A stretch of DNA of 33,121 nucleotides from a virus (lineage: Duplodnaviria; Heunggongvirae; Uroviricota; Caudoviricetes). The stretch lies in IMG/VR virus record IMGVR_UViG_2874945390_000004; one strand, given 5' to 3'. This document shows, in pieces, positions 14,280-31,759 of this stretch; positions within the stretch are counted from its first letter, which is position 1; each line of letters begins with the position of its first letter. A model generated the notes under the pieces. The model did not search any database. It had not been told where the DNA came from and was given only the letters and a program-made list of their open reading frames with translations. Made by a program: the position numbers and the translations under genes.

Positions 14280-14282
14280 CCG

Positions 14283-15635: not shown

Positions 15636-15838
15636 TGAAGACCTTTGCGCTACAGGGCGACACGCTCGACGCCATCTGTGTCCGGTATTACGGGCGCACT
15701 GAGGGCGTGGTCAAGGCCGTGCTCGCCGCAAATCCGGGACTGGCTGAACTGGGAGCGGTGCTGCCGCACGGCACCGCCGTCGAACTGCCCGACGTTCAGA
15801 CCGCGCCCGTGGCTGAAACTGTCAATCTGTGGGAGTAA
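15635..15838 (+). CDS. X: Tail protein X (LysM-like, 67 aa)
   Basis: Start overlaps the L stop (TGATG); MKTFALQGDTLDAICVRYYGRTEGV; 67 aa as in P2 gpX. Confidence 0.85.
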   Translation: MKTFALQGDTLDAICVRYYGRTEGVVKAVLAANPGLAELGAVLPHGTAVELPDVQTAPVAETVNLWE

Positions 15839-15841
15839 CGC

Positions 15842-16619: not shown

Positions 16620-16633
16620 ACGGAGTAAACACC

Positions 16634-17059
16634 ATGAAGAAATTATCCCTTTCACTGATGCTGAACGTGTCGCTGGCGCTGATGCTGGCACTGTCACTGA
16701 TTTACCCGCAGAGCGTGGCCGTCAGTTTTGTCGCTGCCTGGGCGATTCTGGCGACGGTTATCTGTGTGGTTGCCGGTGGTGTCGGCGTGTATGCCACTGA
16801 GTATGTGCTGGAACGCTACGGGCGGGAGCTGCCGCCGGAATCGCTGGCCGTGAAGATTGTCACGTCGCTGTTTTTGCAGCCGGTGCCGTGGCGCAGGCGG
16901 GCAGCGGCTCTGGTGGTGATGGTGGCGACATTTATCTCGCTGGTCGCTGCCGGGTGGATTTTTACTGCGCTGATTTACCTCGTGGCGTCGCTGTTCTTCC
17001 GGCTGATACGTACGGCCTGCCGTCAGCGTTTTGAGGGGCGGGAACCATGTCAAAGCTGA
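16634..17059 (+). CDS. lysA: LysA lysis-timing membrane protein (141 aa)
   Basis: Multi-pass hydrophobic 141-aa ORF in the P2 lysA position with a GGAG ribosome-binding site. Confidence 0.8.
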   Translation: MKKLSLSLMLNVSLALMLALSLIYPQSVAVSFVAAWAILATVICVVAGGVGVYATEYVLERYGRELPPESLAVKIVTSLFLQPVPWRRRAAALVVMVATFISLVAAGWIFTALIYLVASLFFRLIRTACRQRFEGREPCQS

Positions 17060-17472
17060 TGACTGTGCTGGTTGTGTTGTTATCACTGGCGGTGGCGGGG
17101 CTGTTTCTGGTGAAGCATGAAAATGCCAGCCTGCGCACCTCACTGGACAGGGCGAACAGCGTCGCCAGCGGGCAGCAGACGACCATCACCATGCTGAAAA
17201 ATCAGCTTCATGTTGCCCTCACCAGGGCAGACAAAAACGAGCTGGCGCAGGTGGCACTGCGTCAGGAACTGGAAAACGCCGCGAAGCGTGAAGCTCAGCG
17301 CGAGAAAACCATCACGAGATTACTCAATGAAAACGAAGATTTCCGCCGCTGGTACGGTGCTGACCTGCCTGATGTTGTGCGCCGGTTGCACCAGCGTCCG
17401 GCCTGCACCGACGCCAGTGATTGTCGCCAACGCCTGCCCGAAAGTGAGTCTTTGCCCGATGCCGGGCAGTGA
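17047..17472 (+). CDS. lysB: LysB, Rz-like inner-membrane spanin (141 aa)
   Basis: N-terminal transmembrane helix followed by a charged coiled-coil-like region; P2 lysB position and size. Confidence 0.8.
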   Translation: MSKLMTVLVVLLSLAVAGLFLVKHENASLRTSLDRANSVASGQQTTITMLKNQLHVALTRADKNELAQVALRQELENAAKREAQREKTITRLLNENEDFRRWYGADLPDVVRRLHQRPACTDASDCRQRLPESESLPDAGQ

Positions 17473-17617
17473 CCCGCAGACGAACGGCGATTTAAGTGCC
17501 GATATCCGGCAGCTTGAGAACGCGCTGGCACGCTGTGCCAGCCAGGTAAAAATGATTAAACACTGTCAGGATGAAAACGATGCTCAAACCCGACAGCCTG
17601 CGCAGGGCGCTGACTGA
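17327..17617 (+). CDS. lysC: LysC, Rz1-like outer-membrane lipoprotein spanin (96 aa), embedded in the +1 frame of lysB
   Basis: ORF in an alternative frame within lysB that runs into R; lipobox LCAGC after a signal peptide (MKTKISAAGTVLTCLMLCAGC); 96 aa as in P2 LysC. Confidence 0.7.
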   Translation: MKTKISAAGTVLTCLMLCAGCTSVRPAPTPVIVANACPKVSLCPMPGSDPQTNGDLSADIRQLENALARCASQVKMIKHCQDENDAQTRQPAQGAD

Positions 17618-18047
17618 TGCCGTCACGGTGCTGAAAACCAGTCCAGAGATGCTGCGGATATTCGTGGATAACGGGAGTATTGCCTCCACACTGGCGACGT
17701 CGTTGTCATTCGAAAAGCGTTACACGCTCAATGTGATTGTGACCGACTTTACCGGTGATTTTGACCTGCTCATCGTGCCGGTGCTGGCGTGGCTGCGGGA
17801 AAATCAGCCCGACATCATGACCACCGACGAAGGCCAGAAAAAGGGCTTCACGTTTTATGCAGACATCAACAATGACAGCAGCTTTGATATCAGTATCAGC
17901 CTGATGCTGACCGAGCGCACGCTGGTCAGTGAGGTGGACGGCGCGCTGCATGTGAAGAATATCCCGGAACCTCCGCCGCCGGAGCCGGTCACCCGCCCGA
18001 TGGAGCTGTATATCAATGGCGAACTCGTGAGTAAGTGGGATGAATGA
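17580..18047 (+). CDS. R: Tail completion protein R (155 aa)
   Basis: MLKPDSLRRALTDAVTVLK...; 155 aa as in P2 gpR. An alternative in-frame ATG lies at 17571. Confidence 0.85.
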   Translation: MLKPDSLRRALTDAVTVLKTSPEMLRIFVDNGSIASTLATSLSFEKRYTLNVIVTDFTGDFDLLIVPVLAWLRENQPDIMTTDEGQKKGFTFYADINNDSSFDISISLMLTERTLVSEVDGALHVKNIPEPPPPEPVTRPMELYINGELVSKWDE

Positions 18048-18492
18048 GTTTAAGCGTTTTGAAGACCGGCTGACCGGACTGATTGAGTCGCTGTCACCGT
18101 CAGGGCGTCGGCGACTGAGTGCCGAACTGGCGAAACGTCTGCGGCAGAGTCAGCAGCGTCGGGTGATGGCACAGAAAGCCCCGGATGGCACACCCTATGC
18201 GCCACGCCAGCAGCAGAGCGCCAGAAAAAAGACCGGTCGCGTTAAGCGAAAAATGTTTGCGAAACTTATCACCAGTCGTTTTTTGCATATCCGCGCCAGC
18301 CCGGAACAGGCATCAATGGAATTTTACGGCGGGAAGTCACCGAAAATCGCCAGCGTGCATCAGTTTGGTCTGTCGGAAGAAACCCGGAAAGACGGTAAGA
18401 AAATTGATTATCCGGCGCGTCCTCTGCTCGGCTTTACCGGTGAGGATGTGCAGATGATTGAAGAGATTATCCTGGCTCACCTCGACCGTTAG
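18040..18492 (+). CDS. S: Tail completion protein S (150 aa)
   Basis: 150-aa ORF overlapping the R stop; P2 gpS size and position. Confidence 0.85.
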   Translation: MNEFKRFEDRLTGLIESLSPSGRRRLSAELAKRLRQSQQRRVMAQKAPDGTPYAPRQQQSARKKTGRVKRKMFAKLITSRFLHIRASPEQASMEFYGGKSPKIASVHQFGLSEETRKDGKKIDYPARPLLGFTGEDVQMIEEIILAHLDR

Positions 18493-18511
18493 TTGTGCCA
18501 TTCCCGACACC
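18493..18511 (+). promoter_or_regulatory. Candidate late-promoter activator site upstream of V
   Basis: TTGTGCCATTCCCGACACC about 60 bp upstream of the V start, sharing the TGTTGT-N-AC(C) pattern with the O and FI upstream regions. Confidence 0.3.
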
Positions 18512-18558
18512 TCATCGTTACATTGCCGCCGGTATGACCCGGCGGCATCCTTCCCGTT

Positions 18559-19224
18559 ATGAACACTCTCGCAAATATCCAGGAACTCGCGCGCGCACTG
18601 CGCAACATGATCCGCACCGGCCTTGTCGTCGAAACCAACCTTAAAGCCGGTCGCTGCCGTGTGCAGACCGGCGGCATGTGCACCGACTGGCTTCAGTGGC
18701 TGACCCATCGCGCCGGTCGTTCGCGCACATGGTGGGCACCTTCCGTGGGGGAGCAGGTGCTGATTCTGGCCGTGGGCGGTGAACTTGACACGGCGTTTGT
18801 TCTGCCGGGGATTTATTCCGGCGATAACCCCGCGCCGTCTGCGTCGGCGGATGCCCTGCATATCCGTTTCCCTGACGGGGCGGTGATTGAGTATGAACCC
18901 GAAACCAGTGCACTCACGGTAAGCGGAATTAAAACGGCCAGCGTGACGGCTTCTGATTCTGTTACTGCCACGGTGCCGGTGGTCATGGTGAAAGCATCAA
19001 CCCGCGTCACCCTGGACACACCGGAGGTGGTCTGCACCAACAGGCTGATTACCGGCACGCTGGAAGTGCAGAAGGGCGGGACGATGCGCGGCAACATTGA
19101 ACACACCGGCGGTGAACTCTCATCAAACGGTAAGGTACTGCATACCCATAAACACCCGGCGACAGCGGCGGCACAACCGGGAGCCCTCTATGACAGCGCG
19201 TTATCTCGGAATGAATCGCAGTGA
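18559..19224 (+). CDS. V: Baseplate spike protein V, with a C-terminal frameshift as sequenced (221 aa; 211 aa expected)
   Basis: Matches P2 gpV to ...HTHKHP. A G run at 19158..19159 appears one base short; the alternative frame reads GDSGGTTGSPL and stops at TGA 19191..19193, overlapping the W ATG (ATGA), which gives exactly 211 aa. Confidence 0.85.
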   Translation: MNTLANIQELARALRNMIRTGLVVETNLKAGRCRVQTGGMCTDWLQWLTHRAGRSRTWWAPSVGEQVLILAVGGELDTAFVLPGIYSGDNPAPSASADALHIRFPDGAVIEYEPETSALTVSGIKTASVTASDSVTATVPVVMVKASTRVTLDTPEVVCTNRLITGTLEVQKGGTMRGNIEHTGGELSSNGKVLHTHKHPATAAAQPGALYDSALSRNESQ

Positions 19225-19537
19225 TGGCCTGACTGTCACTGACCTTGAGCATATCAGCCAGAGTATCGGCGATATCCTGCGCACACCGGTCGGCTCACGG
19301 GTGATGCGCCGTGATTACGGCTCGTTGCTGGCGTCAATGATTGACCAGCCGCAGACCCCGGCGCTTGAGTTGCAGATTAAGGTCGCCTGTTACATGGCGG
19401 TGCTGAAATGGGAACCCCGCGTCACCCTGTCATCCGTCACCACTGAGCGCAGTTTTGACGGGCGAATGACGGTCACGTTAACCGGCCAGCACAACGACAC
19501 CGGCCAGCCACTTTCGTTAACCATCCCTGTGAGTTGA
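19190..19537 (+). CDS. W: Baseplate wedge protein W (115 aa)
   Basis: MTARYLGMNRSDGLTVTDLEHISQSIGDIL; 115 aa as in P2 gpW. Confidence 0.9.
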   Translation: MTARYLGMNRSDGLTVTDLEHISQSIGDILRTPVGSRVMRRDYGSLLASMIDQPQTPALELQIKVACYMAVLKWEPRVTLSSVTTERSFDGRMTVTLTGQHNDTGQPLSLTIPVS

Positions 19538-19541
19538 AACC

Positions 19542-20450
19542 ATGCCGATTATCGACCTGAACCAGCTACCCGCACCGGATGTGGTCGAGGAGCTGGACTT
19601 TGAAACCATTCTTGCCGAACGCAAGGCGACACTGATTTCCCTTTACCCGGAAGACCAGCAGGAGGCGGTTGCCCGTACCCTGACGCTGGAATCCGAGCCT
19701 CTCGTCAAACTGCTGGAGGAAAATGCTTATCGTGAGCTTATCTGGCGTCAGCGTGTGAATGAGGCCGCACGGGCGGTAATGCTGGCCTGTGCCGCCGGTA
19801 ATGACCTTGATGTGATTGGTGCCAATTACAACACCACGCGCCTGATTATCACCCCGGCAGATGATTCGACCATCCCGCCGACACCGGCAGTGATGGAGTC
19901 TGACACCGATTATCGTCTGCGTATTCAGCAGGCGTTTGAGGGCTTAAGCGTCGCCGGGTCGGTGGGAGCCTATCAGTATCATGGTCGCAGTGCCGACGGG
20001 CGTGTCGCGGATATTTCTGTCACCAGTCCGTCTCCGGCCTGCGTCACCATCTCTGTGCTGTCACGTGAAAATAACGGCGTCGCATCCGAAGACCTGCTGG
20101 CCGTGGTGCGTAACGCCCTTAATGGCGAGGACGTCAGGCCGGTGGCCGACCGCGTGACCGTGCAGTCTGCCGCCATCGTTGAATACCAGATAAACGCCAC
20201 GCTTTACCTTTACCCTGGTCCTGAAAGCGAACCCATCCGCGCTGCTGCCGTGAAAAAACTGGAAGCGTACATCACAGCACAGCACCGGCTGGGGCGTGAC
20301 ATCCGTCTGTCTGCCATTTATGCCGCTTTGCATGTGGAAGGCGTGCAGCGTGTTGAACTGGCTTCACCACTGGCCGACATCGTGCTCAACAGTACGCAGG
20401 CGTCTTTCTGTACCGAATACCGCGTCGTGACCGGAGGCTCGGATGAGTGA
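19542..20450 (+). CDS. J: Baseplate protein J (302 aa)
   Basis: 302-aa ORF as in P2 gpJ. Confidence 0.9.
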   Translation: MPIIDLNQLPAPDVVEELDFETILAERKATLISLYPEDQQEAVARTLTLESEPLVKLLEENAYRELIWRQRVNEAARAVMLACAAGNDLDVIGANYNTTRLIITPADDSTIPPTPAVMESDTDYRLRIQQAFEGLSVAGSVGAYQYHGRSADGRVADISVTSPSPACVTISVLSRENNGVASEDLLAVVRNALNGEDVRPVADRVTVQSAAIVEYQINATLYLYPGPESEPIRAAAVKKLEAYITAQHRLGRDIRLSAIYAALHVEGVQRVELASPLADIVLNSTQASFCTEYRVVTGGSDE

Positions 20451-20973
20451 TTCGCGACTGCTGCCGACCGGCTCATCACCGCTTGAAGTTGCCGCCGCAC
20501 AAGCCTGTGCGGAAATTGAAAAAACGCCGGTCAGGATTCGTGAACTGTGGAACCCGGATACCTGTCCGGCAAATCTGCTGCCGTGGCTGGCGTGGGCGTT
20601 TTCGGTCGACAGGTGGGATGAAAAGTGGCCGGAAGCGACAAAACGCGCCGTTATCCGCGATGCCTATTTCATCCACTGTCATAAAGGCACTATCGGCGCA
20701 ATCCGGCGTGTGGTGGAGCCGCTCGGCTATCTCATCAACGTGACGGAGTGGTGGGAAAACAGTGACCCGCCCGGCACCTTCCGGCTTGATATTGGTGTAC
20801 TGGAAAGCGGCATCACAGAGGCAATGTATCAGGAAATGGAACGGCTTATTGCTGATGCCAAACCTGCAAGCCGTCATCTTATTGGCCTGAACATTACCCG
20901 GGACATTCCCGGCTACCTGTTCGCCGGTGGTGTGGCTTACGACGGCGATGTAATTACGGTTTACCCCGGATAA
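20443..20973 (+). CDS. I: Baseplate protein I (176 aa)
   Basis: 176-aa ORF overlapping the J stop; P2 gpI size. Confidence 0.9.
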   Translation: MSDSRLLPTGSSPLEVAAAQACAEIEKTPVRIRELWNPDTCPANLLPWLAWAFSVDRWDEKWPEATKRAVIRDAYFIHCHKGTIGAIRRVVEPLGYLINVTEWWENSDPPGTFRLDIGVLESGITEAMYQEMERLIADAKPASRHLIGLNITRDIPGYLFAGGVAYDGDVITVYPG

Positions 20974-20983
20974 GTGAGGAATA

Positions 20984-23302
20984 ATGAGCACAAAATTCAG
21001 AACCGTTATCACCACTGCCGGTGCAGCAAAGCTGGCAGCGGCAACCGCACCGGGAGGGCGGAAGGTCAACATTACCACGATGGCCGTCGGGGATGGCGGT
21101 GGTAAATTGCCTGTCCCGGATGCCGGACAGACCGGGCTTATCCACGAAGTCTGGCGACATACGCTGAACAAAATCAGCCAGGACAAACGAAACAGTAATT
21201 ATATTATCGCAGAGCTGGTTATTCCGCCGGAGGTGGGCGGTTTCTGGATGCGTGAGCTTGGCCTGTACGATGATGCGGGAACGTTAATTGCCGTGGCGAA
21301 CATGGCCGAAAGTTATAAGCCAGCTCTTGCCGAAGGCTCAGGGCGTTCGCAGACCTGTCGCATGGTCATCATCGTCAGCAGTGTGGCCTCGGTGGAGCTG
21401 ACCATTGACACCACAACGGTGATGGCGACACAGGATTACGTTGATGACAAAATTGCAGAGCACGAACAGTCACGACGTCACCCGGACGCCTCGCTGACCG
21501 CAAAAGGTTTTACTCAGTTAAGCAGTGCGACCAACAGCACGTCTGAAACACTGGCCGCAACGCCGAAAGCGGTAAAGGCCGCCTATGACCTTGCTAACGG
21601 GAAATATACCGCACAGGACGCTACCACAGCGCGAAAAGGTCTTGTCCAGCTCAGTAGTGCCACCAACAGCACGTCTGAAACGCTTGCGGCAACGCCAAAG
21701 GCGGTTAAGACAGCGTATGACCTTGCTAACGGGAAATACACTGCACAGGACGCCACTACAGCGCGAAAAGGTCTTGTCCAGCTCAGTAGCGCCACCAACA
21801 GCGATTCTGAAACGCTTGCGGCAACACCAAAGGCGGTTAAGACAGCGTATGACCTTGCTAACGGGAAATACACTGCACAGGATGCCACCACAGCGCGAAA
21901 AGGTCTTGTCCAGCTAAGTAGTGCCATCAACAGCGATTCTGAAACGCTGGCCGCAACGCCAAAAGCAGTGAAGTCTGCCTATGACAATGCTGAAAAACGT
22001 CTTCAGAAAGATCAGAACGGTGCGGATATTCCGGGAAAGGATACCTTCACGAAAAATATCGGTGCCTGTCGTGCTTATAGCGGCGCTTTGAGCACTGAAG
22101 CCGGAAACTGGACAACCGCTCAGTTTATTGAATGGCTGGATTCCCGTGGTGCATTTAATCATCCGTACTGGATGTGCAAAGGCTCCTGGTCATATGCAAA
22201 TAACAAAATCATTACGGATACCGGATGTGGTGATATCCACCTGGCTGGTTGTGTCGTCGAGGTCATGGGAACAAAATCTGCAATCACTATTCGAGTGACC
22301 ACGCCGACAACATCAAGCGGTGGCGGTACAACCAGCGCGCAATTCACTTACATTAATCATGGGGACGGCTACTCCCCCGGCTGGCGTCGTGACTGGAATC
22401 GTCAGGGCGACGCAATGACCGGAACGATTAATCAGGATGGCGGAAGCCAGAATGCCTATATGTCTACGGCCTTATGTTCAGGCACCAGAGGCGGCAAAAA
22501 ATATCTCAGAAAGTTTCGTGGTGGAGAAGGAGACACTATCTGGCATGAAACAGTGCAGGGCGGGGTAATTCGCTGGGCGACAGGAAACTATGACGCTCAG
22601 GAAGAATTATCACTCAGCTCTGCTTATGGTCTTCGTTCAAGAGGTGAAATTACATCACTCAGTGCTAATGGTCTGCGCATTGCTTATGGCAATTATGGAT
22701 TCTTTATCAGGAATGATGGTGGCAGCACATATTTAATGCTGACGGCCTCTGGTGATAAATTTGGGACATGGAACGGTTTAAGGCCGCTGACTATCAATAA
22801 CGCTAATGGCGGAGTGTCAATGGGGCATGGCCTGAGTGTTACTGGTGATATTGCCTCAAGTACCAAAGTACGTGCCGGTAGCGGGAAAAAGTTCACGGTC
22901 AGCAGCAGCAATACATCCACGAAGGAAGCCGCATTCAATTTGTGGGGAAACTCAAGTCGTCCTGTGGTGGCTGAATTAGGTGATGATGCAGGCTGGCATT
23001 TTTACAGTCAGAGAAATACAGATAACAGCATCACTTTTGCTGTTAACGGGCAGGTATCACCATCTAACTATAGTAATTTTGATTCACGCTATGTCCGGGA
23101 TATCCGGCTTGGTGGTGCTGCCACATACAAACCTGCGAACAATGGCATGACATGGACACATCAGGCACCGTCCGGGTGTGTATATTCCGGCATTATTGTT
23201 CAGGATACCGGCTCAAACTCTGCCGATAACATTGGTGGCATATATTACAGACCGGTGCAGAAATACATTAACGGGACTTGGTATAACGTGGCGCAGGTAT
23301 AA
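20984..23302 (+). CDS. H: Tail fibre protein H (772 aa) with an expanded internal tandem repeat and a divergent C-terminal receptor-binding region
   Basis: N-terminal about 170 aa match P2 gpH (MSTKFRTVITTAGAAKLAAATAPGG...), followed by repeats of QLSSATNSTSETLAATPKAVKxAYDLANGKYTAQDATTARKGLV and a lower-GC C-terminal domain. Longer than the 669 aa I recall for P2 gpH. Confidence 0.9.
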   Translation: MSTKFRTVITTAGAAKLAAATAPGGRKVNITTMAVGDGGGKLPVPDAGQTGLIHEVWRHTLNKISQDKRNSNYIIAELVIPPEVGGFWMRELGLYDDAGTLIAVANMAESYKPALAEGSGRSQTCRMVIIVSSVASVELTIDTTTVMATQDYVDDKIAEHEQSRRHPDASLTAKGFTQLSSATNSTSETLAATPKAVKAAYDLANGKYTAQDATTARKGLVQLSSATNSTSETLAATPKAVKTAYDLANGKYTAQDATTARKGLVQLSSATNSDSETLAATPKAVKTAYDLANGKYTAQDATTARKGLVQLSSAINSDSETLAATPKAVKSAYDNAEKRLQKDQNGADIPGKDTFTKNIGACRAYSGALSTEAGNWTTAQFIEWLDSRGAFNHPYWMCKGSWSYANNKIITDTGCGDIHLAGCVVEVMGTKSAITIRVTTPTTSSGGGTTSAQFTYINHGDGYSPGWRRDWNRQGDAMTGTINQDGGSQNAYMSTALCSGTRGGKKYLRKFRGGEGDTIWHETVQGGVIRWATGNYDAQEELSLSSAYGLRSRGEITSLSANGLRIAYGNYGFFIRNDGGSTYLMLTASGDKFGTWNGLRPLTINNANGGVSMGHGLSVTGDIASSTKVRAGSGKKFTVSSSNTSTKEAAFNLWGNSSRPVVAELGDDAGWHFYSQRNTDNSITFAVNGQVSPSNYSNFDSRYVRDIRLGGAATYKPANNGMTWTHQAPSGCVYSGIIVQDTGSNSADNIGGIYYRPVQKYINGTWYNVAQV
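21515..21985 (+). repeat. Tandem repeat of 132 bp (44 codons), about 3.5 copies, inside H
   Basis: Near-identical units start at 21515, 21647, 21779 and 21911 (partial). The repeat also produces the spurious mirrored ORFs on both strands at 21583..21930. Confidence 0.9.
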
Positions 23303-23305
23303 TTT

Positions 23306-23833
23306 ATGCAGCATTTGATAAATATAACGGCAGGTAATCCAAAAACGGTTGAACAATATCAATTGACAAAGGACTTTGATGTTGTCTGGTTTTTTTCAGA
23401 AGATGGTAAGAACTGGTACGAAGAACAAAAGTATTTTGCTGATGACACGATAAAAATAGCGTACGACAAAGATAATATTATCCGCTATGTGGAAAAGGAT
23501 GTGACAGCTATCAGACCGGATGGATTAAGTGTTGTTGAAGTGCCGGATATTACTGCTAACCGACGGGCGGACATTTCAGGGAACTGGATGTTTAAGGACG
23601 GTACAGTGATTAAACGAATTTATACGGCAGAGGAATTGCAGCAGCAGGCAGAAAATCGGAAAGCCAGACTTCTTGCAGATGCTGAATCCGTGATTTTGCC
23701 GCTGGAGCGCGCTGTCAGGCTGAATATGGCAACAGATGAGGAGCGCAGCCTACTGGAAGCATGGGAACGCTACAGCGTTCTGGTCAGTCGTGTGGATCCT
23801 GCAAATCCTGAATGGCCGGAAATGCCGCAATAA
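23306..23833 (+). CDS. G: Tail fibre assembly chaperone G (175 aa)
   Basis: 175-aa ORF directly after H; C-terminal region typical of tail-fibre assembly proteins ([25 protein letters not shown]). Confidence 0.85.
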
Positions 23834-23947
23834 GTTGTATGAGCTCTGGTGTGAGCTTACATATCTATGGCACAGAGTAAAGCCTAATCTGAGAGTCCGC
23901 TCTGTGCCAGAAGTAGACGCACAAGGTGGGCGTGTCTTTTTCTTAAG

Positions 23948-25365
23948 CTACATCGGGCTCTTATATGGGGAATGAGAGTTTTTGAAACGCGGTTCTTCAT
24001 GCTTCGGACTGTAAATTCTTGCATGATTATCTATCACAACTTTACTTCCAAGAATATCTCGAGCTTCTCCTAACGACCACACAGTAGAAAGATCATTAGT
24101 CAAATTTCGATAGAGAGCACGAAACCCCTTGGGTTTTTTAAGATCATATAAGAAATCAGGAACTTTAACTTTAAAATTAAAGGTCGGTAGTTTCGGAAGG
24201 GAATTAATAGCCGCAACAGTATTGTATACATGTACAAGCTTAGTTACAGGTACACCTTGTCTAGTCTTGAGCCCATACTTAGTTCGAATATAATCTGATT
24301 CTTTCGATACTTCAGTAAGCAATGCTCTTACTGACTTATTAGCTTGAGGCAATTCATTTTCATCAAACAAGCGCTTTATTTCTCGCATTTTCTCACGGGC
24401 CCTTACAAATTCGTTGTTGTCCCTTATGTTATAAGCAGCTTCAACAATACAACTTGGATCACCAGTTTCTTTTGCGAGCCATGCCGAAAATAAAGGAAGC
24501 GAAGTTGCTGTTGCTACAGCTTTACCACCAGAATGAATATCAATGAGATCATGACTTAACGAAGTGGAAAAGTTTTCTACAATATGTTTAGCATAGTCAA
24601 AACCATACTGACAGTTTTGGCTTAAATATGTCTGTTGATACGCCTGACGTAATGGATATAAAAAAGTATCTGCTTGAAGGTACTTAGCTGTGAGAGAATA
24701 AAATACTGCCCGATTAGCCAGCCATACAAGCGAAGCCACGAATGCTTTGATTGCATCTGATGCTTCACCAGCAGATGTGCCATCCCCCATTTTGCTCCGG
24801 GAACTTTGTACCCCTTGCGAATAGGGTTGCCAAATCGATCGAGAAGTTCAACATCGCCATTTGTTCTATTACCAGACTCAGCAGCATCACGCAGTTCTGA
24901 AAAAATGGCAGCAGCAATGTTACCATATTTTTCAAACTCCTTACCTCCATCAGATAAGTTCTTCAGTGTTAGATGATAAACACTTGAACTAATGTCCCAT
25001 GTACATATGATATGTGTCTGAAGAAGTTCAATTAGTTTTTTAAAATCGTCATTAACAAATGTTCCACCACGAATTTTAGGTTTCAATGCATCAGATATTT
25101 TTTTTTGCTTCACTTTCAATTTCATCCAACCCATATTGTGCTTTATCAAGAAATAATATCTCTCTGAAACTTGAAATCCTACTCCCACGGTACTCTGGAA
25201 TATAATCATCAACCGCGATAACGTGATCATAGAACAAAATAGACTGTATATAGTTCTCAAATGCTATTATGTCTGTATCTACTGAGTCCTTCGATCTTGT
25301 TTTTACTTTCCCTCGATTCTTTGGACTGCAGTTAGAGTTGAATTATCAATCAGTGCGTATGTCAT
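23948..25365 (-). CDS. Large uncharacterised leftward cargo gene (about 472 aa if three single-base frame breaks are repaired), P2 Z/fun position
   Basis: AT-rich. ATG at 25365 with an AAGGA ribosome-binding site opens MTYALIDNSTLTAVQRIEGK. Coding-like translation continues through three frame changes at homopolymer runs (G run near 25311..25313, A9 run 25093..25101, G5 run 24788..24792), joining the ORF-track pieces 24622..25260 and 23948..24790. No known domain recognised. Confidence 0.55.
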
Positions 25366-25775: not shown

Positions 25776-26606
25776 ATGAGTGACTATCATCACGGCGTGC
25801 AGGTGCTGGAGATTAACGACGGCACCCGCGTCATTTCCACCGTATCCACTGCCATTGTCGGCATGGTCTGCACGGCCAGCGATGCGGATGCGGAAACCTT
25901 CCCCCTCAATAAACCGGTGCTGATTACCAATGTGCAGAGCGCAATTGCAAAGGCCGGTAAAAAAGGCACGCTGGCGGCATCGTTGCAGGCCATCGCCGAC
26001 CAGTCAAAACCGGTCACCGTTGTCGTGCGTGTGGAAGACGGCACCGGCGACGACGAGGAAACGAAACTCGCGCAGACCGTTTCCAATATCATCGGCACCA
26101 CCGACGAAAACGGTCAGTACACCGGACTGAAAGCCCTGCTGGCGGCGGAGTCGGTAACCGGTGTTAAACCGCGTATTCTCGGCGTGCCGGGACTGGACAC
26201 CAAAGAGGTGGCTGTTGCACTGGCATCAGTCTGTCAGAAGCTGCGCGCTTTCGGGTATATCAGCGCATGGGGCTGTAAGACCGTTTCCGAGGTGAAAGCC
26301 TACCGTCAGAATTTCAGCCAGCGTGAGCTGATGGTCATCTGGCCGGATTTCCTCGCATGGGATACGGTCGCCAGTACCACCGCCACCGCGTATGCCACCG
26401 CCCGTGCGCTGGGTCTGCGCGCTAAAATCGACACCGGCGAGGGTAAACAGGGAGAAGACACCGAGTCGAAAATCTCCGTGGTCTGCACCTATTTCCGGCT
26501 GACGATGGACGGTAAGGAGCTGGTCGAAATCGACACCATCAACATGATTGAGAAGGTGAACGGCGTCGACCGGCTGGAGCAACACCGCCGCAATATCGGC
26601 CTGTAA
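25776..26606 (+). CDS. FI: Tail sheath FI N-terminal portion fused in frame to the tail tube FII C-terminus (276 aa; deletion derivative)
   Basis: The first ~230 aa match P2 sheath gpFI (MSDYHHGVQVLEINDGTRVISTVSTAIVGMV...ARALGLRAKID). The sequence then continues as TGEGKQGEDTESKISVVCTYFRLTMDGKELVEIDTINMIEKVNGVDRLEQHRRNIGL, which I recall as the C-terminus of P2 tube protein FII. E follows directly and no separate FII gene is present. Confidence 0.75.
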   Translation: MSDYHHGVQVLEINDGTRVISTVSTAIVGMVCTASDADAETFPLNKPVLITNVQSAIAKAGKKGTLAASLQAIADQSKPVTVVVRVEDGTGDDEETKLAQTVSNIIGTTDENGQYTGLKALLAAESVTGVKPRILGVPGLDTKEVAVALASVCQKLRAFGYISAWGCKTVSEVKAYRQNFSQRELMVIWPDFLAWDTVASTTATAYATARALGLRAKIDTGEGKQGEDTESKISVVCTYFRLTMDGKELVEIDTINMIEKVNGVDRLEQHRRNIGL

Positions 26607-26662
26607 TTTTCATCCGGTCAGCCTGGCTGACCGGTTAACCCCGATTCAGAAGTGAGAAAACC

Positions 26663-26938
26663 ATGAACAAAGAAAATGTGATTACCCTGGACAATCCGGT
26701 CAAGCGTGGTGAGCAGGTTATCGAACAGGTCACGCTGATGAAACCCAGTGCGGGGACGCTGCGCGGTGTCAGTCTGGCTGCGGTCGCAAACTCAGAAGTC
26801 GATGCACTGATTAAGGTGCTGCCGCGCATGACGGCACCGATGCTGACCGAGCAGGAAGTCGCCGCGCTGGAACTGCCTGACCTTGTGGCGCTGGCCGGTA
26901 AGGTGGTCGGTTTTTTGTCGCCGAACTCGGTGCAGTGA
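26663..26938 (+). CDS. E: Tail assembly chaperone E (91 aa)
   Basis: MNKENVITLDNPVKRGEQVIEQVTLMKPSAG...; 91 aa as in P2 gpE. Confidence 0.85.
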   Translation: MNKENVITLDNPVKRGEQVIEQVTLMKPSAGTLRGVSLAAVANSEVDALIKVLPRMTAPMLTEQEVAALELPDLVALAGKVVGFLSPNSVQ

Positions 26939-27090
26939 CGCTTCCGAAAAATCTGTCGGTCGATGACCTGATGGCGGATGTGGCAGTGATATTTCACTGG
27001 CCGCCATCAGAACTGTATCCCATGAGCCTGACCGAACTCATCACATGGCGCGAAAAGGCGCTCAGGCGAAGCGGAAACACGAATGAGTAA
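26663..27090 (+). CDS. E': E+E' tail assembly chaperone made by programmed -1 ribosomal frameshift (142 aa)
   Basis: Slippery sequence G GTT TTT TG at 26910..26917 near the end of E. The -1 frame stays open to TAA at 27088..27090, overlapping the T start, giving 142 aa as for P2 E+E'. Confidence 0.7.
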
Positions 27091-29530
27091 CAATGTAAAA
27101 TTACAGGTATTGCTCAGGGCTGTTGACCAGGCGTCCCGCCCGTTTAAATCCATCCGCACAGCGAGTAAGTTGCTGTCGGGGGATATCCGGGAAACACAAA
27201 AATCACTGCGCGAGCTGAACGGTCACGCATCCCGTATTGAGGGATTCCGCAAGACCAGTGCACAGCTCGCCGTGACTGGTCATGCACTTGAAAAGGCACG
27301 GCAGGAGGCCGAAGCCCTTGCCACACAGTTTAAAAACACCGAACGCCCGACCCGTGCTCAGGCGAAAGTGCTGGAATCCGCAAAGCGTGCGGCGGAGGAC
27401 TTACAGGCGAAATATAACCGCCTGACAGATTCCGTTAAACGCCAGCAGCGGGAACTGGCCGCTGTGGGAATTAATACCCGCAATCTTGCACATGATGAGC
27501 AGGGACTGAAAAACCGTATCAGTGAAACCACCGCCCAGCTTAACCGGCAGCGTGACGCGCTGGCGCGTGTCAGTGCGCAACAGGCAAAACTTAACGCAGT
27601 CAAACAGCGTTATCAGGCCGGAAAGGAACTGGCCGGAAATATGGCCTCAGTGGGCGCTGCCGGTGTGGGGATTGCTGCTGCGGGAACGATAGCCGGAGTT
27701 AAGCTGCTGATGCCAGGTTATGAGTTTGCGCAGAAAAACTCAGAATTGCAGGCTGTGCTCGGTGTGGCAAAAGACTCCGCCGAAATGGCTGCACTCCGCA
27801 AGCAGGCGCGCCAGCTCGGTGACAACACCGCCGCCTCAGCGGATGATGCGGCCGGTGCACAGATTATCATTGCGAAAGCGGGTGGGGATGTTGATGCCAT
27901 TCAGGCGGCAACGCCGGTCACGCTGAATATGGCGCTGGCGAACCGCCGCACAATGGAAGAAAACGCCGCCCTGCTGATGGGGATGAAATCCGCCTTTCAG
28001 CTTTCAAACGATAAGGTCGCTCATATCGGGGATGTTCTCTCCATGACGATGAACAAAACCGCCGCTGATTTTGACGGCATGAGCGATGCGCTGACCTATG
28101 CCGCACCAGTGGCAAAAAATGCCGGTGTCAGCATTGAAGAAACCGCCGCAATGGTCGGGGCGCTGCATGATGCAAAAATCACAGGCTCAATGGCGGGGAC
28201 GGGAAGCCGTGCCGTGTTAAGTCGCCTGCAGGCACCGACTGGAAAAGCATGGGATGCACTCAAAGAGCTTGGCGTGAAAACCTCAGACAGTAAGGGAAAC
28301 ACCCGACCAGTATTTACCATTCTGAAAGAAATGCAGGCCAGCTTTGAGAAAAACCGGCTCGGTACTGCCCAGCAGGCCGAATACATGAAAACCATTTTCG
28401 GGGAGGAGGCCAGCTCAGCCGCCGCTGTGCTGATGACTGCCGCGTCAACCGGAAAGCTGGACAAACTGACCGCTGCGTTTAAAGCCTCAGACGGGAAGAC
28501 CGCAGAGCTGGTAAATATCATGCAGGACAACCTCGGCGGTGACTTTAAGGAGTTTCAGTCCGCTTATGAGGCGGTGGGGACAGACCTGTTTGACCAGCAG
28601 GAAGGCGCGCTACGTAAGCTCACGCAGACGGCCACAAAGTATGTGTTAAAACTCGACGGCTGGGTACAGAAAAACAAATCACTGGCGTCAACCATTGGCC
28701 TCATTGCCGGTGGCGCGCTGGCGCTGACTGGCATCATCGGTGCAATTGGTCTTGTAGCCTGGCCGGTTATCACCGGCATCAATGCCATCATCGCGGCAGC
28801 AGGCGCAATGGGGGCAATCTTCACGACGGTTGGTAGTGCCGTTATGACGGCCATCGGGGCGATTAGCTGGCCGGTTGTGGCTGTGGTGGCCGCCATTGTC
28901 GCCGGGGCGTTGCTTATCCGTAAATACTGGGAGCCTGTCAGCGCATTCTTTGGCGGTGTGGTTGAAGGGCTGAAAGCGGCATTTGCGCCGGTGGGGGAGC
29001 TGTTCACGCCACTGAAACCGGTGTTTGACTGGCTGGGCGAAAAGTTACAGGCTGCGTGGCAGTGGTTTAAAAACCTGATTGCCCCGGTCAAAGCCACCCA
29101 GGACACCCTGAACCGTTGCCGTGACACGGGCGTCATGTTCGGGCAGGCACTGGCTGACGCGCTGATGCTGCCGCTTAATGCGTTCAACAAATTGCGCAGC
29201 GGCATTGACTGGGTACTGGAAAAGCTCGGGGTCATCAACAAAGAGTCAGACACACTTGACCAGACCGCCGCCAGAACTCATGCCGCCACGTATGGCACCG
29301 GTGGTTATATTCCGGCGACCAGCTCTTATGCAGGCTATCAGGCTTATCAGCCGGTCACGGCACCGGCTGGCCGCTCTTATGTGGACCAGAGTAAAAACGA
29401 ATATCACATCAGCCTGACGGGTGGTACTGCGCCGGGGACACAGCTTGACCGCCAGTTACAGGATGCGCTCGAAAAATACGAGCGGGATAAACGTGCGCGT
29501 GCCCGTGCCAGCATGATGCATGACGGTTAA
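27083..29530 (+). CDS. T: Tail tape measure protein T (815 aa)
   Basis: 815-aa ORF with coiled-coil-rich N-terminal half and glycine/alanine-rich hydrophobic segments; size equals P2 gpT. Confidence 0.9.
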   Translation: MSNNVKLQVLLRAVDQASRPFKSIRTASKLLSGDIRETQKSLRELNGHASRIEGFRKTSAQLAVTGHALEKARQEAEALATQFKNTERPTRAQAKVLESAKRAAEDLQAKYNRLTDSVKRQQRELAAVGINTRNLAHDEQGLKNRISETTAQLNRQRDALARVSAQQAKLNAVKQRYQAGKELAGNMASVGAAGVGIAAAGTIAGVKLLMPGYEFAQKNSELQAVLGVAKDSAEMAALRKQARQLGDNTAASADDAAGAQIIIAKAGGDVDAIQAATPVTLNMALANRRTMEENAALLMGMKSAFQLSNDKVAHIGDVLSMTMNKTAADFDGMSDALTYAAPVAKNAGVSIEETAAMVGALHDAKITGSMAGTGSRAVLSRLQAPTGKAWDALKELGVKTSDSKGNTRPVFTILKEMQASFEKNRLGTAQQAEYMKTIFGEEASSAAAVLMTAASTGKLDKLTAAFKASDGKTAELVNIMQDNLGGDFKEFQSAYEAVGTDLFDQQEGALRKLTQTATKYVLKLDGWVQKNKSLASTIGLIAGGALALTGIIGAIGLVAWPVITGINAIIAAAGAMGAIFTTVGSAVMTAIGAISWPVVAVVAAIVAGALLIRKYWEPVSAFFGGVVEGLKAAFAPVGELFTPLKPVFDWLGEKLQAAWQWFKNLIAPVKATQDTLNRCRDTGVMFGQALADALMLPLNAFNKLRSGIDWVLEKLGVINKESDTLDQTAARTHAATYGTGGYIPATSSYAGYQAYQPVTAPAGRSYVDQSKNEYHISLTGGTAPGTQLDRQLQDALEKYERDKRARARASMMHDG

Positions 29531-29544
29531 GGAGGTGACGAAAA

Positions 29545-30024
29545 ATGATGCTCGCGTTAGGTATGTTTGTTTTTATGCGCCAGACGCTGCCACACCAGAC
29601 CATGCAGCGTGAATCAGATTATCGCTGGCCGTCAAATTCCCGTATCGGTAAACGGGATGCCTTTCAGTTTCTCGGTGTGGGTGAGGAAAACATGACGCTT
29701 GCCGGCGTGCTTTATCCCGAACTGACCGGCGGGAATCTGACGATGACCACGCTCAGGCTGATGGCAGAGGAAGGCCGGGCGTGGCCGTTGCTGGATGGCA
29801 CCGGCATGATTTACGGCATGTATGTCATCAGCAGGGTGAGTGAAACAGGGAGTATTTTCTTTGCAGACGGCACACCCCGGAAAATTGATTTTACGCTGTC
29901 GCTCACCCGCGTGGATGAATCACTGGCCGCGCTTTATGGCGATATCGGTAAACAGGCGGAATCGCTCATCGGTAAGGCTGGCAGTGTGGCGACCAGATTC
30001 ACGGGTATGACGGGGGCGGGATAA
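29545..30024 (+). CDS. U: Tail protein U (159 aa)
   Basis: MMLALGMFVFMRQTLPHQTMQRESDYRW; 159 aa as in P2 gpU. Confidence 0.9.
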   Translation: MMLALGMFVFMRQTLPHQTMQRESDYRWPSNSRIGKRDAFQFLGVGEENMTLAGVLYPELTGGNLTMTTLRLMAEEGRAWPLLDGTGMIYGMYVISRVSETGSIFFADGTPRKIDFTLSLTRVDESLAALYGDIGKQAESLIGKAGSVATRFTGMTGAG

Positions 30025-31187
30025 TGCTGGATGCGCTGACATTTGATGCAGGCAGTACGCTGACGCCGGATTACATGCTGATGCTCGACAGCAGGGATAT
30101 TACCGGCAATATCAGCGACCGTCTGATGAGCATGACCCTGACGGATAACCGGGGCTTTGAGGCTGACCAGCTTGATATTGAACTGAACGATGCCGACGGG
30201 CAGGTCGAACTGCCGGTTCGTGGTGCTGTTCTGACGGTGTATATCGGCTGGAAAGGTTTTGCCCTGGTATGCAAAGGGAAATTTACCGTTGATGAGGTTG
30301 AACACCGGGGCGCACCGGATGTGGTCACCATCCGCGCCCGGAGTGCAGATTTTCGCGGGACGCTCAATTCCCGCCGTGAAGGCTCATGGCATGACACCAC
30401 GCTCGGTGCGATTGTTGAGGCGATAGCCTCCCGTAACAAGCTGGAAGCCAGTGTCGCGCCGTCACTGGCCGGAATTAAAATCCCGCACATCGACCAGTCG
30501 CAGGAGTCTGATGCGAAATTCCTGACCCGTCTTGCTGAACGCAACGGCGGTGAGGTGTCGGTAAAAATGGGAAAACTGTTGTTTCTCAAAGCGGGGCAGG
30601 GGGTGACGGCCAGCGGTAAAAAAATCCCGCAGGTCACCATAACCCGCAGCGACGGCGACCGCCATCATTTTGCGATTGCTGACCGTGGAGCCTATACCGG
30701 CGTAACGGCAAAGTGGTTACACACCAAAGACCCGAAGCCGCAAAAGCAGAAGGTAAAACTGAAACGCAAAAAGAAAGAGAAACACCTGCGCGCACTGGAG
30801 CACCCGAAAGCGAAACCAGTCACGCAGAAGAAAGCGCCAAAAGTACCGGAAGCGCGCGAAGGTGAATACATGGCTGGTGAGGCTGACAATGTTTTTGCCC
30901 TGACTACGGTATATGCCACAAAAGCGCAGGCCATGCGCGCCGCTCAGGCGAAGTGGGATAAACTGCAACGGGGCGTTGCGGAGTTCTCCATCAGCCTGGC
31001 TACCGGTCGGGCAGATATTTACACGGAAACGCCGGTCAAAGTATCAGGCTTTAAGCGCGTCATAGACGAGCAGGACTGGACAATCACTAAGGTGACACAT
31101 TTTCTGAATAATAGCGGCTTCACGACGTCCTTAGAGCTTGAGGTCATGCTTTCTGATGTGGAGTACGAAACAGAAGATGATGGGTGA
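30024..31187 (+). CDS. D: Late control / tail protein D (387 aa)
   Basis: Start overlaps the U stop (TAATG); 387 aa as in P2 gpD. Confidence 0.9.
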   Translation: MLDALTFDAGSTLTPDYMLMLDSRDITGNISDRLMSMTLTDNRGFEADQLDIELNDADGQVELPVRGAVLTVYIGWKGFALVCKGKFTVDEVEHRGAPDVVTIRARSADFRGTLNSRREGSWHDTTLGAIVEAIASRNKLEASVAPSLAGIKIPHIDQSQESDAKFLTRLAERNGGEVSVKMGKLLFLKAGQGVTASGKKIPQVTITRSDGDRHHFAIADRGAYTGVTAKWLHTKDPKPQKQKVKLKRKKKEKHLRALEHPKAKPVTQKKAPKVPEAREGEYMAGEADNVFALTTVYATKAQAMRAAQAKWDKLQRGVAEFSISLATGRADIYTETPVKVSGFKRVIDEQDWTITKVTHFLNNSGFTTSLELEVMLSDVEYETEDDG

Positions 31188-31268
31188 TGTTTTTATTTTA
31201 TCTGTTTGTTTTATAAGGATAAATTAACTAAAATGGCACCATCAACAAAACCGGAAGAGGTGCTCGCG

Positions 31269-31487
31269 ATGTTTCATTGTCCTTTATGCCAGCATGCCGC
31301 ACATGCGCGTACAAGTCGCTATATCACTGACACGACAAAAGAGCGTTATCACCAGTGCCAGAACGTGAATTGCAGCGCCACGTTCATCACTTATGAGTCG
31401 GTACAGCGATACATCGTGAAGCCGGGAGAAGTCCACGCCGTAAGGCCGCACCCGTTGCCGTCAGGGCAGCAAATTATGTGGATGTAA
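31269..31487 (+). CDS. ogr: Late-gene transcription activator Ogr (zinc finger, 72 aa)
   Basis: Start MFHCPLCQHAAHARTSRYITDTTKERYHQCQNVNCSATF with a GAGGTG ribosome-binding site; Cys4 zinc finger; 72 aa as in P2 Ogr and E. coli OgrK. Confidence 0.9.
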   Translation: MFHCPLCQHAAHARTSRYITDTTKERYHQCQNVNCSATFITYESVQRYIVKPGEVHAVRPHPLPSGQQIMWM

Positions 31488-31498
31488 TTACAAACAGG

Positions 31499-31524
31499 AA
31501 GCCCCTCAGTCGAGGGGCTTTTTT
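31499..31524 (+). terminator. Rho-independent terminator downstream of ogr
   Basis: Stem AAGCCCCTC/GAGGGGCTT with a 4-nt loop followed by a T run. Confidence 0.75.
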
Positions 31525-31588
31525 GTCGATGTGGTCAATGTGTGGACGTGACCAGAAATAAATCCTTTTATTTCATTGTATTACGCGT

Positions 31589-31615
31589 AAAAAATAAGCC
31601 CGTGTAAGGGAGATT
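31589..31615. repeat. attR core: 27-bp direct repeat identical to 489..515; also the 3' terminator end of cyaR
   Basis: Exact 27-bp identity with 489..515; contains the stem-loop and U-tail of the cyaR terminator on the minus strand. Confidence 0.8.
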
Positions 31616-31675
31616 ACACAGGCTAAGGAGGTGGTTCCTGGTACAGCTAGCATTTTATGGGTTATGTTTTTCAGC
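31589..31675 (-). ncRNA. cyaR: CyaR (RyeE) Hfq-dependent small RNA, about 87 nt
   Basis: The minus-strand sequence GCTGAAAAACATAACCCATAAAATGCTAGCTGTACCAGGAACCACCTCCTTAGCCTGTGTAATCTCCCTTACACGGGCTTATTTTTT matches CyaR as recalled, including the CCUCCUU region and intrinsic terminator. It lies between yegQ and ogr as in E. coli. Confidence 0.75.
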
Positions 31676-31707
31676 GAAACGGATGATAACCTTAATAAAT
31701 GCAGCTG

Positions 31708-31727
31708 TATGTGATCGGTTTCTAAGA
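31708..31727 (-). promoter_or_regulatory. Candidate CRP-binding site of the cyaR promoter
   Basis: A TGTGA half-site followed by a degenerate second half-site (TGTGATCGGTTTCTAA), centred about 41 bp upstream of the inferred cyaR 5' end. CyaR is known to be CRP-activated; the site match is partial. Confidence 0.3.
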
Positions 31728-31759
31728 ATTTTCCATCCGGGAAAAATAATCGAAATTAA

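What the first reader, a model, noticed from the sequence alone, without database searches (positions are those of the whole stretch)
24780..25320. Three frame changes, each at a homopolymer run, inside the island-2 gene
Coding-like translation switches frame at a G run (about 25311..25313), an A9 run (25093..25101) and a G5 run (24788..24792). The first and third behave as single-base deletions and the second as a single-base insertion, so the net change is minus one base and repair gives an exact multiple of three. This pattern is typical of homopolymer miscalls in sequencing, but could also reflect real decay or slipped-strand phase variation of a costly cargo gene.
Basis: seen in the sequence. 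Interest (0 to 1): 0.5.

Follow-up and report, generated by a model that had tools for sequence, protein, structure and literature searches.

The report
Homopolymer frameshifts, probably assembly errors
The three frame breaks are really in the deposited sequence and split one 472-codon prophage cargo gene, but near-identical sister strains carry the gene intact, so they are most likely one-base homopolymer miscalls in this genome assembly, not biology.

Summary
Observation confirmed. The window is 100% identical to Shigella boydii chromosome CP026836.1. It holds a tail-defective P2-like prophage between yegR and yegQ. The "island-2 gene" (23948..25365, minus strand) lies in the P2 fun hotspot between tail-fibre assembly G and sheath FI. 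Against the intact 472-aa allele it shows zero substitutions and exactly three one-base homopolymer changes: G4>G3, A8>A9, G6>G5. The net change is -1 nt.

A sister assembly, Logan ERR200294, carries the same rare 891-bp sheath-tube deletion. It has the gene intact and differs by one other base in 11.3 kb.

The same record has three more one-base G/C-run deletions that sisters lack, in terminase, holin and gpV. Only two substitutions are private to it. Six indels to two substitutions, clustered, does not fit ordinary mutation. It fits residual homopolymer-length errors of a long-read assembly (about 0.7).

Real recent decay is not excluded (about 0.24). The prophage is already dead, 5.3 kb of host flank is clean, and a real A8>A7 allele of this gene recurs in three S. 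sonnei assemblies. Phase variation is unlikely.

The gene itself is an unannotated, widely spread family with a weakly PIN-like N-terminal domain. It is a plausible defence candidate.

The parts
23948..25365 (-). Cargo gene ('island-2 gene'), 1418 nt as deposited. The intact allele is 1419 nt and encodes 472 aa. ATG at 25365..25363, AAGGAA ribosome-binding site upstream, stop at 23948..23950.
25310..25312 (-). First frame break: coding-strand G3 (+ strand CCC). All intact alleles have G4 (codons E18-G19). As deposited, translation stops after 20 aa (ORF 25303..25365).
25098..25106 (-). Second frame break: coding-strand A9 (+ strand T9). Intact alleles have A8 (codons A87-K88-K89-I90). An S. 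sonnei lineage has A7.
24784..24788 (-). Third frame break: coding-strand G5 (+ strand C5). Intact alleles have G6 (codons W193-G194-D195). With G6 this would be the longest G/C run in the window.
23948..24790 (-). 280-aa 3' ORF left by the third break. It is annotated as WP_284542155.1 'hypothetical protein [Shigella boydii]' and is on record in one contig only.
11956..11959 (-). G4 where sister L013 and at least 15 other fetched loci have G5. It splits terminase P into 60 aa + 530 aa. Two substitutions private to this record (11990, 12049) lie within 95 nt.
16110..16113 (+). G4 where sister L013 and 16 other loci have G5. It shifts the last codons of holin Y, giving 127 aa instead of 93. This 127-aa variant is on 1 contig only.
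19155..19157 (+). C3 where 11 other loci have C4. It shifts the 3' end of baseplate gpV, giving 221 aa instead of 211. This variant is on 1 contig only.
25776..26606 (+). In-frame sheath(FI)-tube(FII) fusion ORF of 276 aa, made by an 891-bp deletion between two copies of AAATCGAC (junction 26425..26432). It is a real lineage marker shared by 5 contigs, and it makes the prophage tail-defective.
23306..23833 (+). Tail fibre assembly gene G. Together with FI (25776..) it bounds the cargo slot, which is the P2 fun position (defence hotspot 2).

Best explanation
The three frame breaks are most likely residual homopolymer-length consensus errors in the deposited long-read-based chromosome of Shigella boydii (CP026836.1). 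In the organism the gene is probably the intact 472-aa cargo gene of the P2 fun hotspot.

Shown:
- The window is that record.
- The lesions are +/-1 nt in homopolymers with no accompanying substitution.
- They occur only in this record, and near-identical sisters have the intact gene.
- The same record carries three further G/C-run one-base deletions in phage genes that sisters have intact.

Inferred:
- A single 5.1-Mb contig of an IS-rich Shigella genome implies long reads. The platform was not verified.
- The lesions arose in base-calling or polishing, not in the cell.
For: - The window is 100% identical to CP026836.1 over 17-19 kb. That record is named as S. boydii in PMC12817139.
- Against the intact allele there are 0 substitutions and 3 homopolymer indels in 1521 nt.
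- Logan ERR200294 (L006) has the same exact 276-aa sheath-tube fusion protein and an intact 472-aa gene. Over 11,271 nt it differs from the window only by the three indels and one substitution.
- The 280-aa fragment, the 127-aa holin and the 221-aa gpV variants each occur on one contig only, the source. The intact 472-aa sequence is on at least 1000 contigs.
- Sister L013 (99.96% identical) has G5 at 11955 and at 16109, and a 211-aa gpV.
- Polarising with 9-18 other loci shows all six indels derived in this record, with only two private substitutions.
- In about 1,600-1,700 homologous prophage copies in complete E. coli genomes, the best match to each of the three phage-gene segments still carries the extra base.
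- Six indels among eight private changes has P = 2e-4 if indels are 15% of mutations and P = 4e-3 if they are 25%. Sister L013's private changes are 4 substitutions and 0 homopolymer indels (Fisher P = 0.03).
- The eight private changes are clustered: 4 of 7 gaps are under 320 nt, P = 4e-4. That is expected from locally poor consensus and not from independent mutations.
- Five of the six indels are deletions in G/C runs, with a gradient by run length: 2/90 G4, 2/17 G5, 1/1 G6, 1/4 A/T8.
- Long-read bacterial assemblies typically retain homopolymer-length errors, especially in repeats where polishing fails (PMC8812927), and these fragment genes (PMC12007338).
- Pseudogenes of defence genes are rare in P2 hotspots (PMC13586616).
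Against: - No reads were available, so nothing here is read-level proof, and the sequencing platform of the record was not verified.
- The 5.3 kb of host flank from the same record and the outer about 20 kb of the prophage show no such indel. All six lie in 11955..25312, so the error rate would have to be locally high.
- The prophage is already tail-defective and Shigella is prone to pseudogenes, so real neutral decay is expected there.
- These tracts do slip in vivo. An A8>A7 allele of this same gene, with no other change, recurs in three independent S. sonnei assemblies.
- The terminase G5>G4 change also occurs in two Logan assemblies of an unrelated (98.15% identical) P2-like prophage.
Confidence: 0.7

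Rival explanations
1. The frameshifts are real, recent slippage mutations in this S. boydii strain. The P2-like prophage was already dead through the sheath-tube deletion, so its genes, including the cargo gene, are accumulating homopolymer indels without selection. A strain with raised slippage, such as a mismatch-repair defect or long storage, could add to this.
For: - The 891-bp sheath-tube deletion is real and shared across the lineage, so selection on phage genes is relaxed.
- All six indels lie inside the prophage, and 5.3 kb of host flank is clean.
- A real A7 allele exists in S. sonnei.
- A 157-aa truncated form exists in other S. boydii assemblies.
- The terminase G4 allele recurs in an unrelated prophage lineage.
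- With steep dependence on run length, three hits in the cargo gene are not very surprising (P = 0.1-0.19).
Against: - A ratio of 6 indels to 2 substitutions is improbable for wild-type or mismatch-repair-deficient spectra (P = 2e-4 to 4e-3).
- There are zero substitutions in the cargo gene.
- Sisters that differ by about 1 substitution per 10 kb have every one of the affected genes intact.
- The hits favour short G/C runs, while 61 A/T runs of 6-7 nt are untouched.
- Private changes cluster (P = 4e-4).
- No other contig on record reproduces the 280-aa, 127-aa or 221-aa products.
Confidence: 0.24
2. The A-run, and perhaps the G-runs, are contingency tracts. The cargo gene is phase-variable by slipped-strand mispairing, and the window caught an OFF state.
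For: A7 (S. sonnei, three assemblies), A8 (common) and A9 (this record) all exist with otherwise identical sequence. The gene sits in a defence hotspot, where costly genes could benefit from switching.
Against: - Three independent OFF lesions would need three reversions.
- G4 and G6 are short for switching tracts.
- The A8 and G4 runs are absent from the Pectobacterium, Acinetobacter and Citrifermentans orthologues, and G6 merely follows from conserved W-G-D codons.
- The same lesion type hits terminase, holin and gpV.
- At least 1000 contigs carry the exact intact (A8) protein, whereas the A7 allele is on 3 contigs and A9 on 1.
Confidence: 0.04
3. The segments are separate small genes, or the breaks are bypassed by programmed ribosomal frameshifting.
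For: None beyond the existence of ORFs of 20, 48, 212 and 280 aa.
Against: - The segments are collinear with, and 100% identical to, one 472-aa gene that keeps its length in 113 of the homologues aligned, at 51-90% identity.
- The first break gives a stop codon immediately, without a slippery site.
- No homologue is split at these points except the S. sonnei A7 allele.
Confidence: 0.01

Closest known systems
Residual homopolymer-length errors in long-read bacterial genome assemblies ('gene-fragmenting errors'; PMC8812927, PMC12007338)
   Same: One-base length changes confined to homopolymers. No accompanying substitutions. Genes are split into adjacent ORFs. The changes occur only in one assembly, affect unrelated genes in the same record, and cluster locally.
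   Different: The platform and read depth of CP026836.1 were not checked. About 25 kb of neighbouring sequence (the outer ~20 kb of the prophage and 5.3 kb of host flank) shows none. One of the six sites (terminase G5>G4) has the same allele in other assemblies.
Genuine homopolymer-slippage pseudogenes of Shigella (reductive evolution)
   Same: Shigella host, dispensable prophage cargo, homopolymer +/-1 lesion. The S. sonnei A8>A7 allele of this very gene is a true example, reproduced in three assemblies.
   Different: The window's lesions are not reproduced in any other assembly. Sisters are intact. Three hits fall in one gene without a single substitution.
Phase-variable contingency loci (slipped-strand mispairing at simple repeats)
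   Same: A coding-region A8 tract near the 5' third of the gene with A7, A8 and A9 variants among strains.
   Different: Several short tracts are hit at once, the tracts are not conserved in orthologues, and there is no evidence of reversibility.
P2 fun-locus defence hotspot cargo (second P2 hotspot of Vassallo et al. 2022, PMC9519451)
   Same: A single, AT-rich (38% vs 52% G+C), opposite-strand gene between tail-fibre assembly G and sheath FI. Other prophages carry different genes, or none, in the same slot.
   Different: The gene matches no PADLOC, Pfam or NCBIfam model. No defence activity has been shown.
PIN-domain (VapC-like) nucleases

Membership tests
Long-read assembly homopolymer-length error | The change is +/-1 nt inside a homopolymer, without nearby substitutions | tested here: met
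   G4>G3, A8>A9 and G6>G5, with 0 substitutions in 1521 nt
Long-read assembly homopolymer-length error | Found only in one assembly; absent from independent assemblies of close relatives | tested here: met
   L006 (same 891-bp deletion) has the gene intact. The 280-aa fragment is on 1 contig. Nine other loci all have G4/A8/G6.
Long-read assembly homopolymer-length error | The same kind of change is scattered over unrelated genes of the same record, including conserved ones | tested here: inconclusive
   Met inside the prophage: terminase, holin and gpV. Not seen in 5.3 kb of host flank. The rest of the genome could not be fetched.
Long-read assembly homopolymer-length error | Accurate reads of the same strain disagree with the consensus | not testable with these tools
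   No read data are accessible
Genuine pseudogene by decay | The lesion is reproduced in independent assemblies of the lineage | tested here: not met
   Not reproduced for the window's three lesions. By contrast it is met for the S. sonnei A7 allele.
Genuine pseudogene by decay | Mutation spectrum typical of neutral decay (substitutions at least as common as indels) | tested here: not met
   6 private indels against 2 private substitutions in 33 kb, and 0 substitutions in the gene
Phase-variable contingency locus | One long simple-repeat tract whose length varies among close relatives | tested here: inconclusive
   A7, A8 and A9 variants exist, but A8 is on at least 1000 contigs against 3 and 1. 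The G runs are only 4 and 6 nt.
Phase-variable contingency locus | The tract is conserved in orthologues | tested here: not met
   The A8 and G4 runs are absent in the Pectobacterium, Acinetobacter and Citrifermentans genes
Phase-variable contingency locus | Reversible ON/OFF switching within a population | not testable with these tools
   Needs culture or deep-read data
P2 hotspot anti-phage defence gene | Located in a variable cargo slot of P2-like prophages known to hold defence genes | tested here: met
   It lies between G and FI. Other prophages hold different cargo there. The fun locus is described as a second defence-enriched P2 hotspot.
P2 hotspot anti-phage defence gene | Homology to a known defence protein, or demonstrated protection | tested here: not met
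   No PADLOC, Pfam or NCBIfam hit. Protection was not tested.
PIN-domain nuclease (N-terminal domain of the 472-aa protein) | PIN fold | tested here: inconclusive
PIN-domain nuclease (N-terminal domain of the 472-aa protein) | Four conserved acidic active-site residues | tested here: inconclusive
   D7, E37 and D124 are conserved (D7 and D124 in at least 90% of sequences, E37 invariant). A fourth residue and their geometry were not established.

The most novel reading that the evidence does not exclude
The breaks are real. In that case an uncharacterised, widely spread 472-aa candidate defence nuclease in the P2 fun hotspot is being switched off repeatedly in Shigella by slippage at its homopolymer tracts: A7 in S. 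sonnei, and A9 plus two G-run deletions in this S. boydii. That would be a natural example of fast, slippage-driven shut-down of a costly prophage cargo gene. It would run against the reported rarity of defence pseudogenes in P2 hotspots.
Probability: 0.2. Interest if true: 0.4.

Novelty: not a real feature. Interest (0 to 1): 0.15.

Why it matters
Mostly as a caution. The deposited record turns one intact gene into fragments (a 280-aa piece now has its own RefSeq protein accession). It also makes the terminase, holin and gpV of this prophage look broken. Pseudogene counts, prophage "intactness" calls and defence-gene censuses that use this assembly would all be misled.

If the breaks were real, they would be an ordinary kind of pseudogenisation, though an unusually indel-rich one.

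The useful by-product is the gene itself. It belongs to a length-invariant family of 472 aa that keeps 51-90% identity across Gammaproteobacteria and Desulfobacterota. It has no annotation and a weakly PIN-like N-terminal domain. It sits in a known P2 defence hotspot and, in Pectobacterium, in a defence island. That makes it a reasonable candidate for a new single-gene anti-phage system.

Tried and rejected
- **More host DNA from the source record.** I tried to test for genome-wide homopolymer errors by look-ups with yegQ and the integrase. Both proteins are too common and the source record was not returned.
- **Annotation of the source record.** NZ_CP026836.1 is not in the annotated collections.
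- **Function by sequence.** Pfam, PADLOC and NCBIfam gave nothing; PHROGs gave only an unnamed family. A Pfam scan of 30 members gave only noise. A PDB sequence search gave only coiled-coil noise. There was no match in the phage collection by DNA or protein.
- **Ideas dropped.**
  - The 9279 G4 is not an error; it is shared by 10 loci.
  - The enrichment of hits in the cargo gene is not significant once run length is modelled steeply.
  - Programmed frameshifting and three separate genes were rejected.
  - A gene-conversion import of the terminase cluster finds no donor allele in 1,727 places in complete E. coli genomes.
- **Literature.** A search for WP_000220361 found nothing.

Full report
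**What is there**

The window is a complete P2-like prophage. It runs from integrase to ogr and is inserted between yegR (1..318) and yegQ (31760..33121). It is 100% identical to GCA_002950135.1 / CP026836.1 over 17-19 kb. PMC12817139 names that record as S. boydii.

The finding lies in a minus-strand, AT-rich gene (38% G+C against 52% for the window). The gene occupies 23948..25365, between tail-fibre assembly gene G (23306..23833) and sheath gene FI (25776..). From my own knowledge of the P2 map, this is the position of P2 fun. Vassallo et al. describe the fun locus as a second defence-enriched P2 hotspot.

**Checking the observation**

Translation of the minus strand shows one coding path that changes frame three times. 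Seven complete E. coli genomes carry the same DNA at 99.4-99.8% identity with one more base, annotated as one 472-aa hypothetical protein (WP_000220361.1 in 89-3156).

Against E. coli 89-3156 the 1521-nt stretch has no substitution and exactly three one-base indels:
- coding-strand G4>G3 (+ strand 25310..25312)
- A8>A9 (25098..25106)
- G6>G5 (24784..24788)

As deposited, the gene stops after codon 20.

**Are the breaks real biology?**

*Sisters.* The prophage carries an 891-bp in-frame deletion between two AAATCGAC repeats. It fuses sheath FI to tube FII as a 276-aa ORF (25776..26606). That exact fusion protein is on five contigs: the source and four contigs of 20-50 kb. The one shown is a Logan assembly of run ERR200294; three similar places were not displayed. 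So the deletion is a real lineage marker.

In ERR200294 (L006) the cargo gene is intact at 472 aa. Over 11,271 nt, L006 differs from the window only by the three indels and one substitution at 25997, a site that is polymorphic elsewhere.

*Uniqueness.* The exact intact protein is on at least 1000 contigs. The 280-aa fragment (WP_284542155.1, S. boydii) is on one contig only.

*Other lesions in the same record.* Compared with relatives, the window has three more one-base deletions in G/C runs:
- 11956-59 (G5>G4): terminase split into 60 + 530 aa
- 16110-13 (G5>G4): holin 127 aa instead of 93
- 19155-57 (C4>C3): gpV 221 aa instead of 211

Sister L013 (GCA_002968135.1, 99.96% identical) has G5 at both G sites and a 211-aa gpV. 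Eleven to nineteen other fetched loci have the longer run or an interrupted run of the same length at each site. The best matches among about 1,600-1,700 homologous places in complete E. coli genomes all carry the extra base. The 127-aa holin and 221-aa gpV variants are on one contig only. A seventh candidate, G4 at 9279, is shared by ten loci and was dropped.

*Spectrum.* The record has six derived homopolymer indels but only two derived substitutions in 33 kb (11990 and 12049). Both substitutions lie within 95 nt of the terminase indel.
- Six or more indels among eight changes has P = 2e-4 if indels make up 15% of mutations, and P = 4e-3 at 25%.
- L013's private changes are four substitutions and no homopolymer indel (Fisher P = 0.03).
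- The eight changes are clustered: four of seven gaps are under 320 nt (P = 4e-4).
- Five of the six indels are G/C-run deletions, with a gradient by run length of 2/90, 2/17 and 1/1 for G/C runs of 4, 5 and 6.
- None of the 61 A/T runs of 6-7 nt is hit.

This pattern is what residual homopolymer-length errors of long-read assemblies look like. Such errors persist where polishing is weak (PMC8812927) and fragment genes (PMC12007338). A single 5.1-Mb contig for an IS-rich Shigella genome implies long reads. That is inference; I did not verify the platform.

**What speaks for real mutations**

- All six indels lie within 11955..25312 of a prophage that is already dead.
- The 5.3 kb of host flank from the same record has no homopolymer indel against the sister assemblies. 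The outer about 20 kb of the prophage has none against sister L013 (1..11954), sister L006 and the E. coli 89-3156 reference (26425..33121).
- Slippage at these tracts happens in nature. Three independent assemblies attributed to S. sonnei carry this same gene with A8>A7 as the only difference, giving 93-aa and 379-aa ORFs. They are Logan SRR32915726, GCA_000258635.1 and GCA_001258435.1.
- Two Logan assemblies of an unrelated P2-like prophage (98.15% identical) share the terminase G4.
- A 157-aa truncated form exists in other S. boydii assemblies.
- Three hits in the cargo gene are not in themselves remarkable. The gene holds the window's longest G/C run and one of its four A/T 8-runs, giving P = 0.1-0.19 under steep dependence on run length.

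I could not obtain more of the source chromosome to see whether housekeeping genes are hit as well.

**Phase variation and other readings**

The A8 and G4 runs are not conserved in the Pectobacterium, Acinetobacter or Citrifermentans orthologues. G6 follows from conserved W-G-D codons. Three simultaneous OFF lesions, with the same lesion type in terminase, holin and gpV, do not look like a switch. Separate genes and programmed frameshifting are excluded by collinearity with a family whose length does not vary.

A 2026 survey reports that defence pseudogenes are rare in P2 and P4 hotspots (PMC13586616). That slightly lowers the prior for real decay.

**Verdict on the finding**

- Assembly artefact: about 0.70
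- Real recent slippage mutations in a dead prophage: about 0.24
- Phase variation: about 0.04
- Other readings: about 0.01

**The gene itself**

The 472-aa protein has no Pfam, PADLOC or NCBIfam match and only an unnamed PHROG. At least 282 homologues were found. Of the 120 listed, nearly all are 472-474 aa, with 51-90% identity across Enterobacterales, Vibrio, Acinetobacter, Halomonas, Psychrobacter, Desulfotalea and Citrifermentans.

Genomic contexts vary:
- the P2 slot in E. coli and Shigella
- a defence island in Pectobacterium, with HEPN/Toprim, toxin-antitoxin and CTD1/MComp1/SMC genes
- solitary insertions elsewhere

My working guess is a single-gene PIN-like nuclease effector with a large sensor or regulatory domain, acting in anti-phage defence. 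That is inference only.

Noticed in passing
window 25776..26606 (junction 26425..26432): An 891-bp in-frame deletion between two AAATCGAC repeats fuses sheath FI (to about residue 219) to tube FII (from about residue 114) as a 276-aa ORF. The exact protein is on 5 contigs, so the deletion is real and the prophage cannot build a tail.
   Followed up: yes
window 11956..11959, 16110..16113, 19155..19157: One-base G/C-run deletions, absent from sister assemblies, break terminase P (60 + 530 aa), extend holin Y (127 aa vs 93) and alter the gpV 3' end (221 aa vs 211). They are the same kind of lesion as in the finding.
   Followed up: yes
window 11990 and 12049: These are the only two substitutions private to this record in 33 kb, and both lie within 95 nt of the terminase indel. 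This suggests a locally poor consensus or a small imported patch. No donor allele turned up in 1,727 places in complete E. coli genomes.
   Followed up: partly
L042, L043, L044 (gene at 1223..2640 of each locus): Assemblies attributed to S. sonnei carry the same cargo gene with A8>A7 as the only difference, split into 93 + 379 aa. It is reproduced in three independent assemblies, so it is a genuine slippage allele. Intact alleles also exist in S. sonnei.
   Followed up: partly
window 23948..25365; homologues P0001-P0120: The cargo protein belongs to an unannotated family of near-constant length (472 aa) with 51-90% identity across distant Proteobacteria and Desulfobacterota. Its N-terminal domain is weakly PIN-like. 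It is a candidate new single-gene defence system.
   Followed up: partly
window 6459..8965: The other P2 hotspot, between gpA and portal Q, holds ORFs of 150 aa (ASCH/DUF3850), 68, 243 and 260 aa. The three tested (150, 243 and 260 aa) have no PADLOC match, and the 243-aa and 260-aa proteins have no precomputed Pfam hit. The 260-aa protein is listed in 126 blocks of the collection.
   Followed up: partly
window 21499..21985: The tail fibre gene H contains about 130-nt internal direct repeats (repeated 'KGLVQLSSATNS...TAQDATTAR' units), seen as self-matches in BLAST.
   Followed up: no
L013 (GCA_002968135.1) against window 6235..6722: The sister assembly lacks about 486 bp spanning the end of gpA and the ASCH gene (gpA is called as 691 aa). 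It also lacks one 7-nt TAAACAG repeat unit in the yegS-yegR spacer, just outside the window.
   Followed up: no
L039 (Logan ERR9979385): This contig shows several extra homopolymer indels relative to the window (10333-4, 12304, 12504, 13295). Some Logan assemblies are therefore themselves homopolymer-noisy and should not be taken as truth without checking.
   Followed up: no
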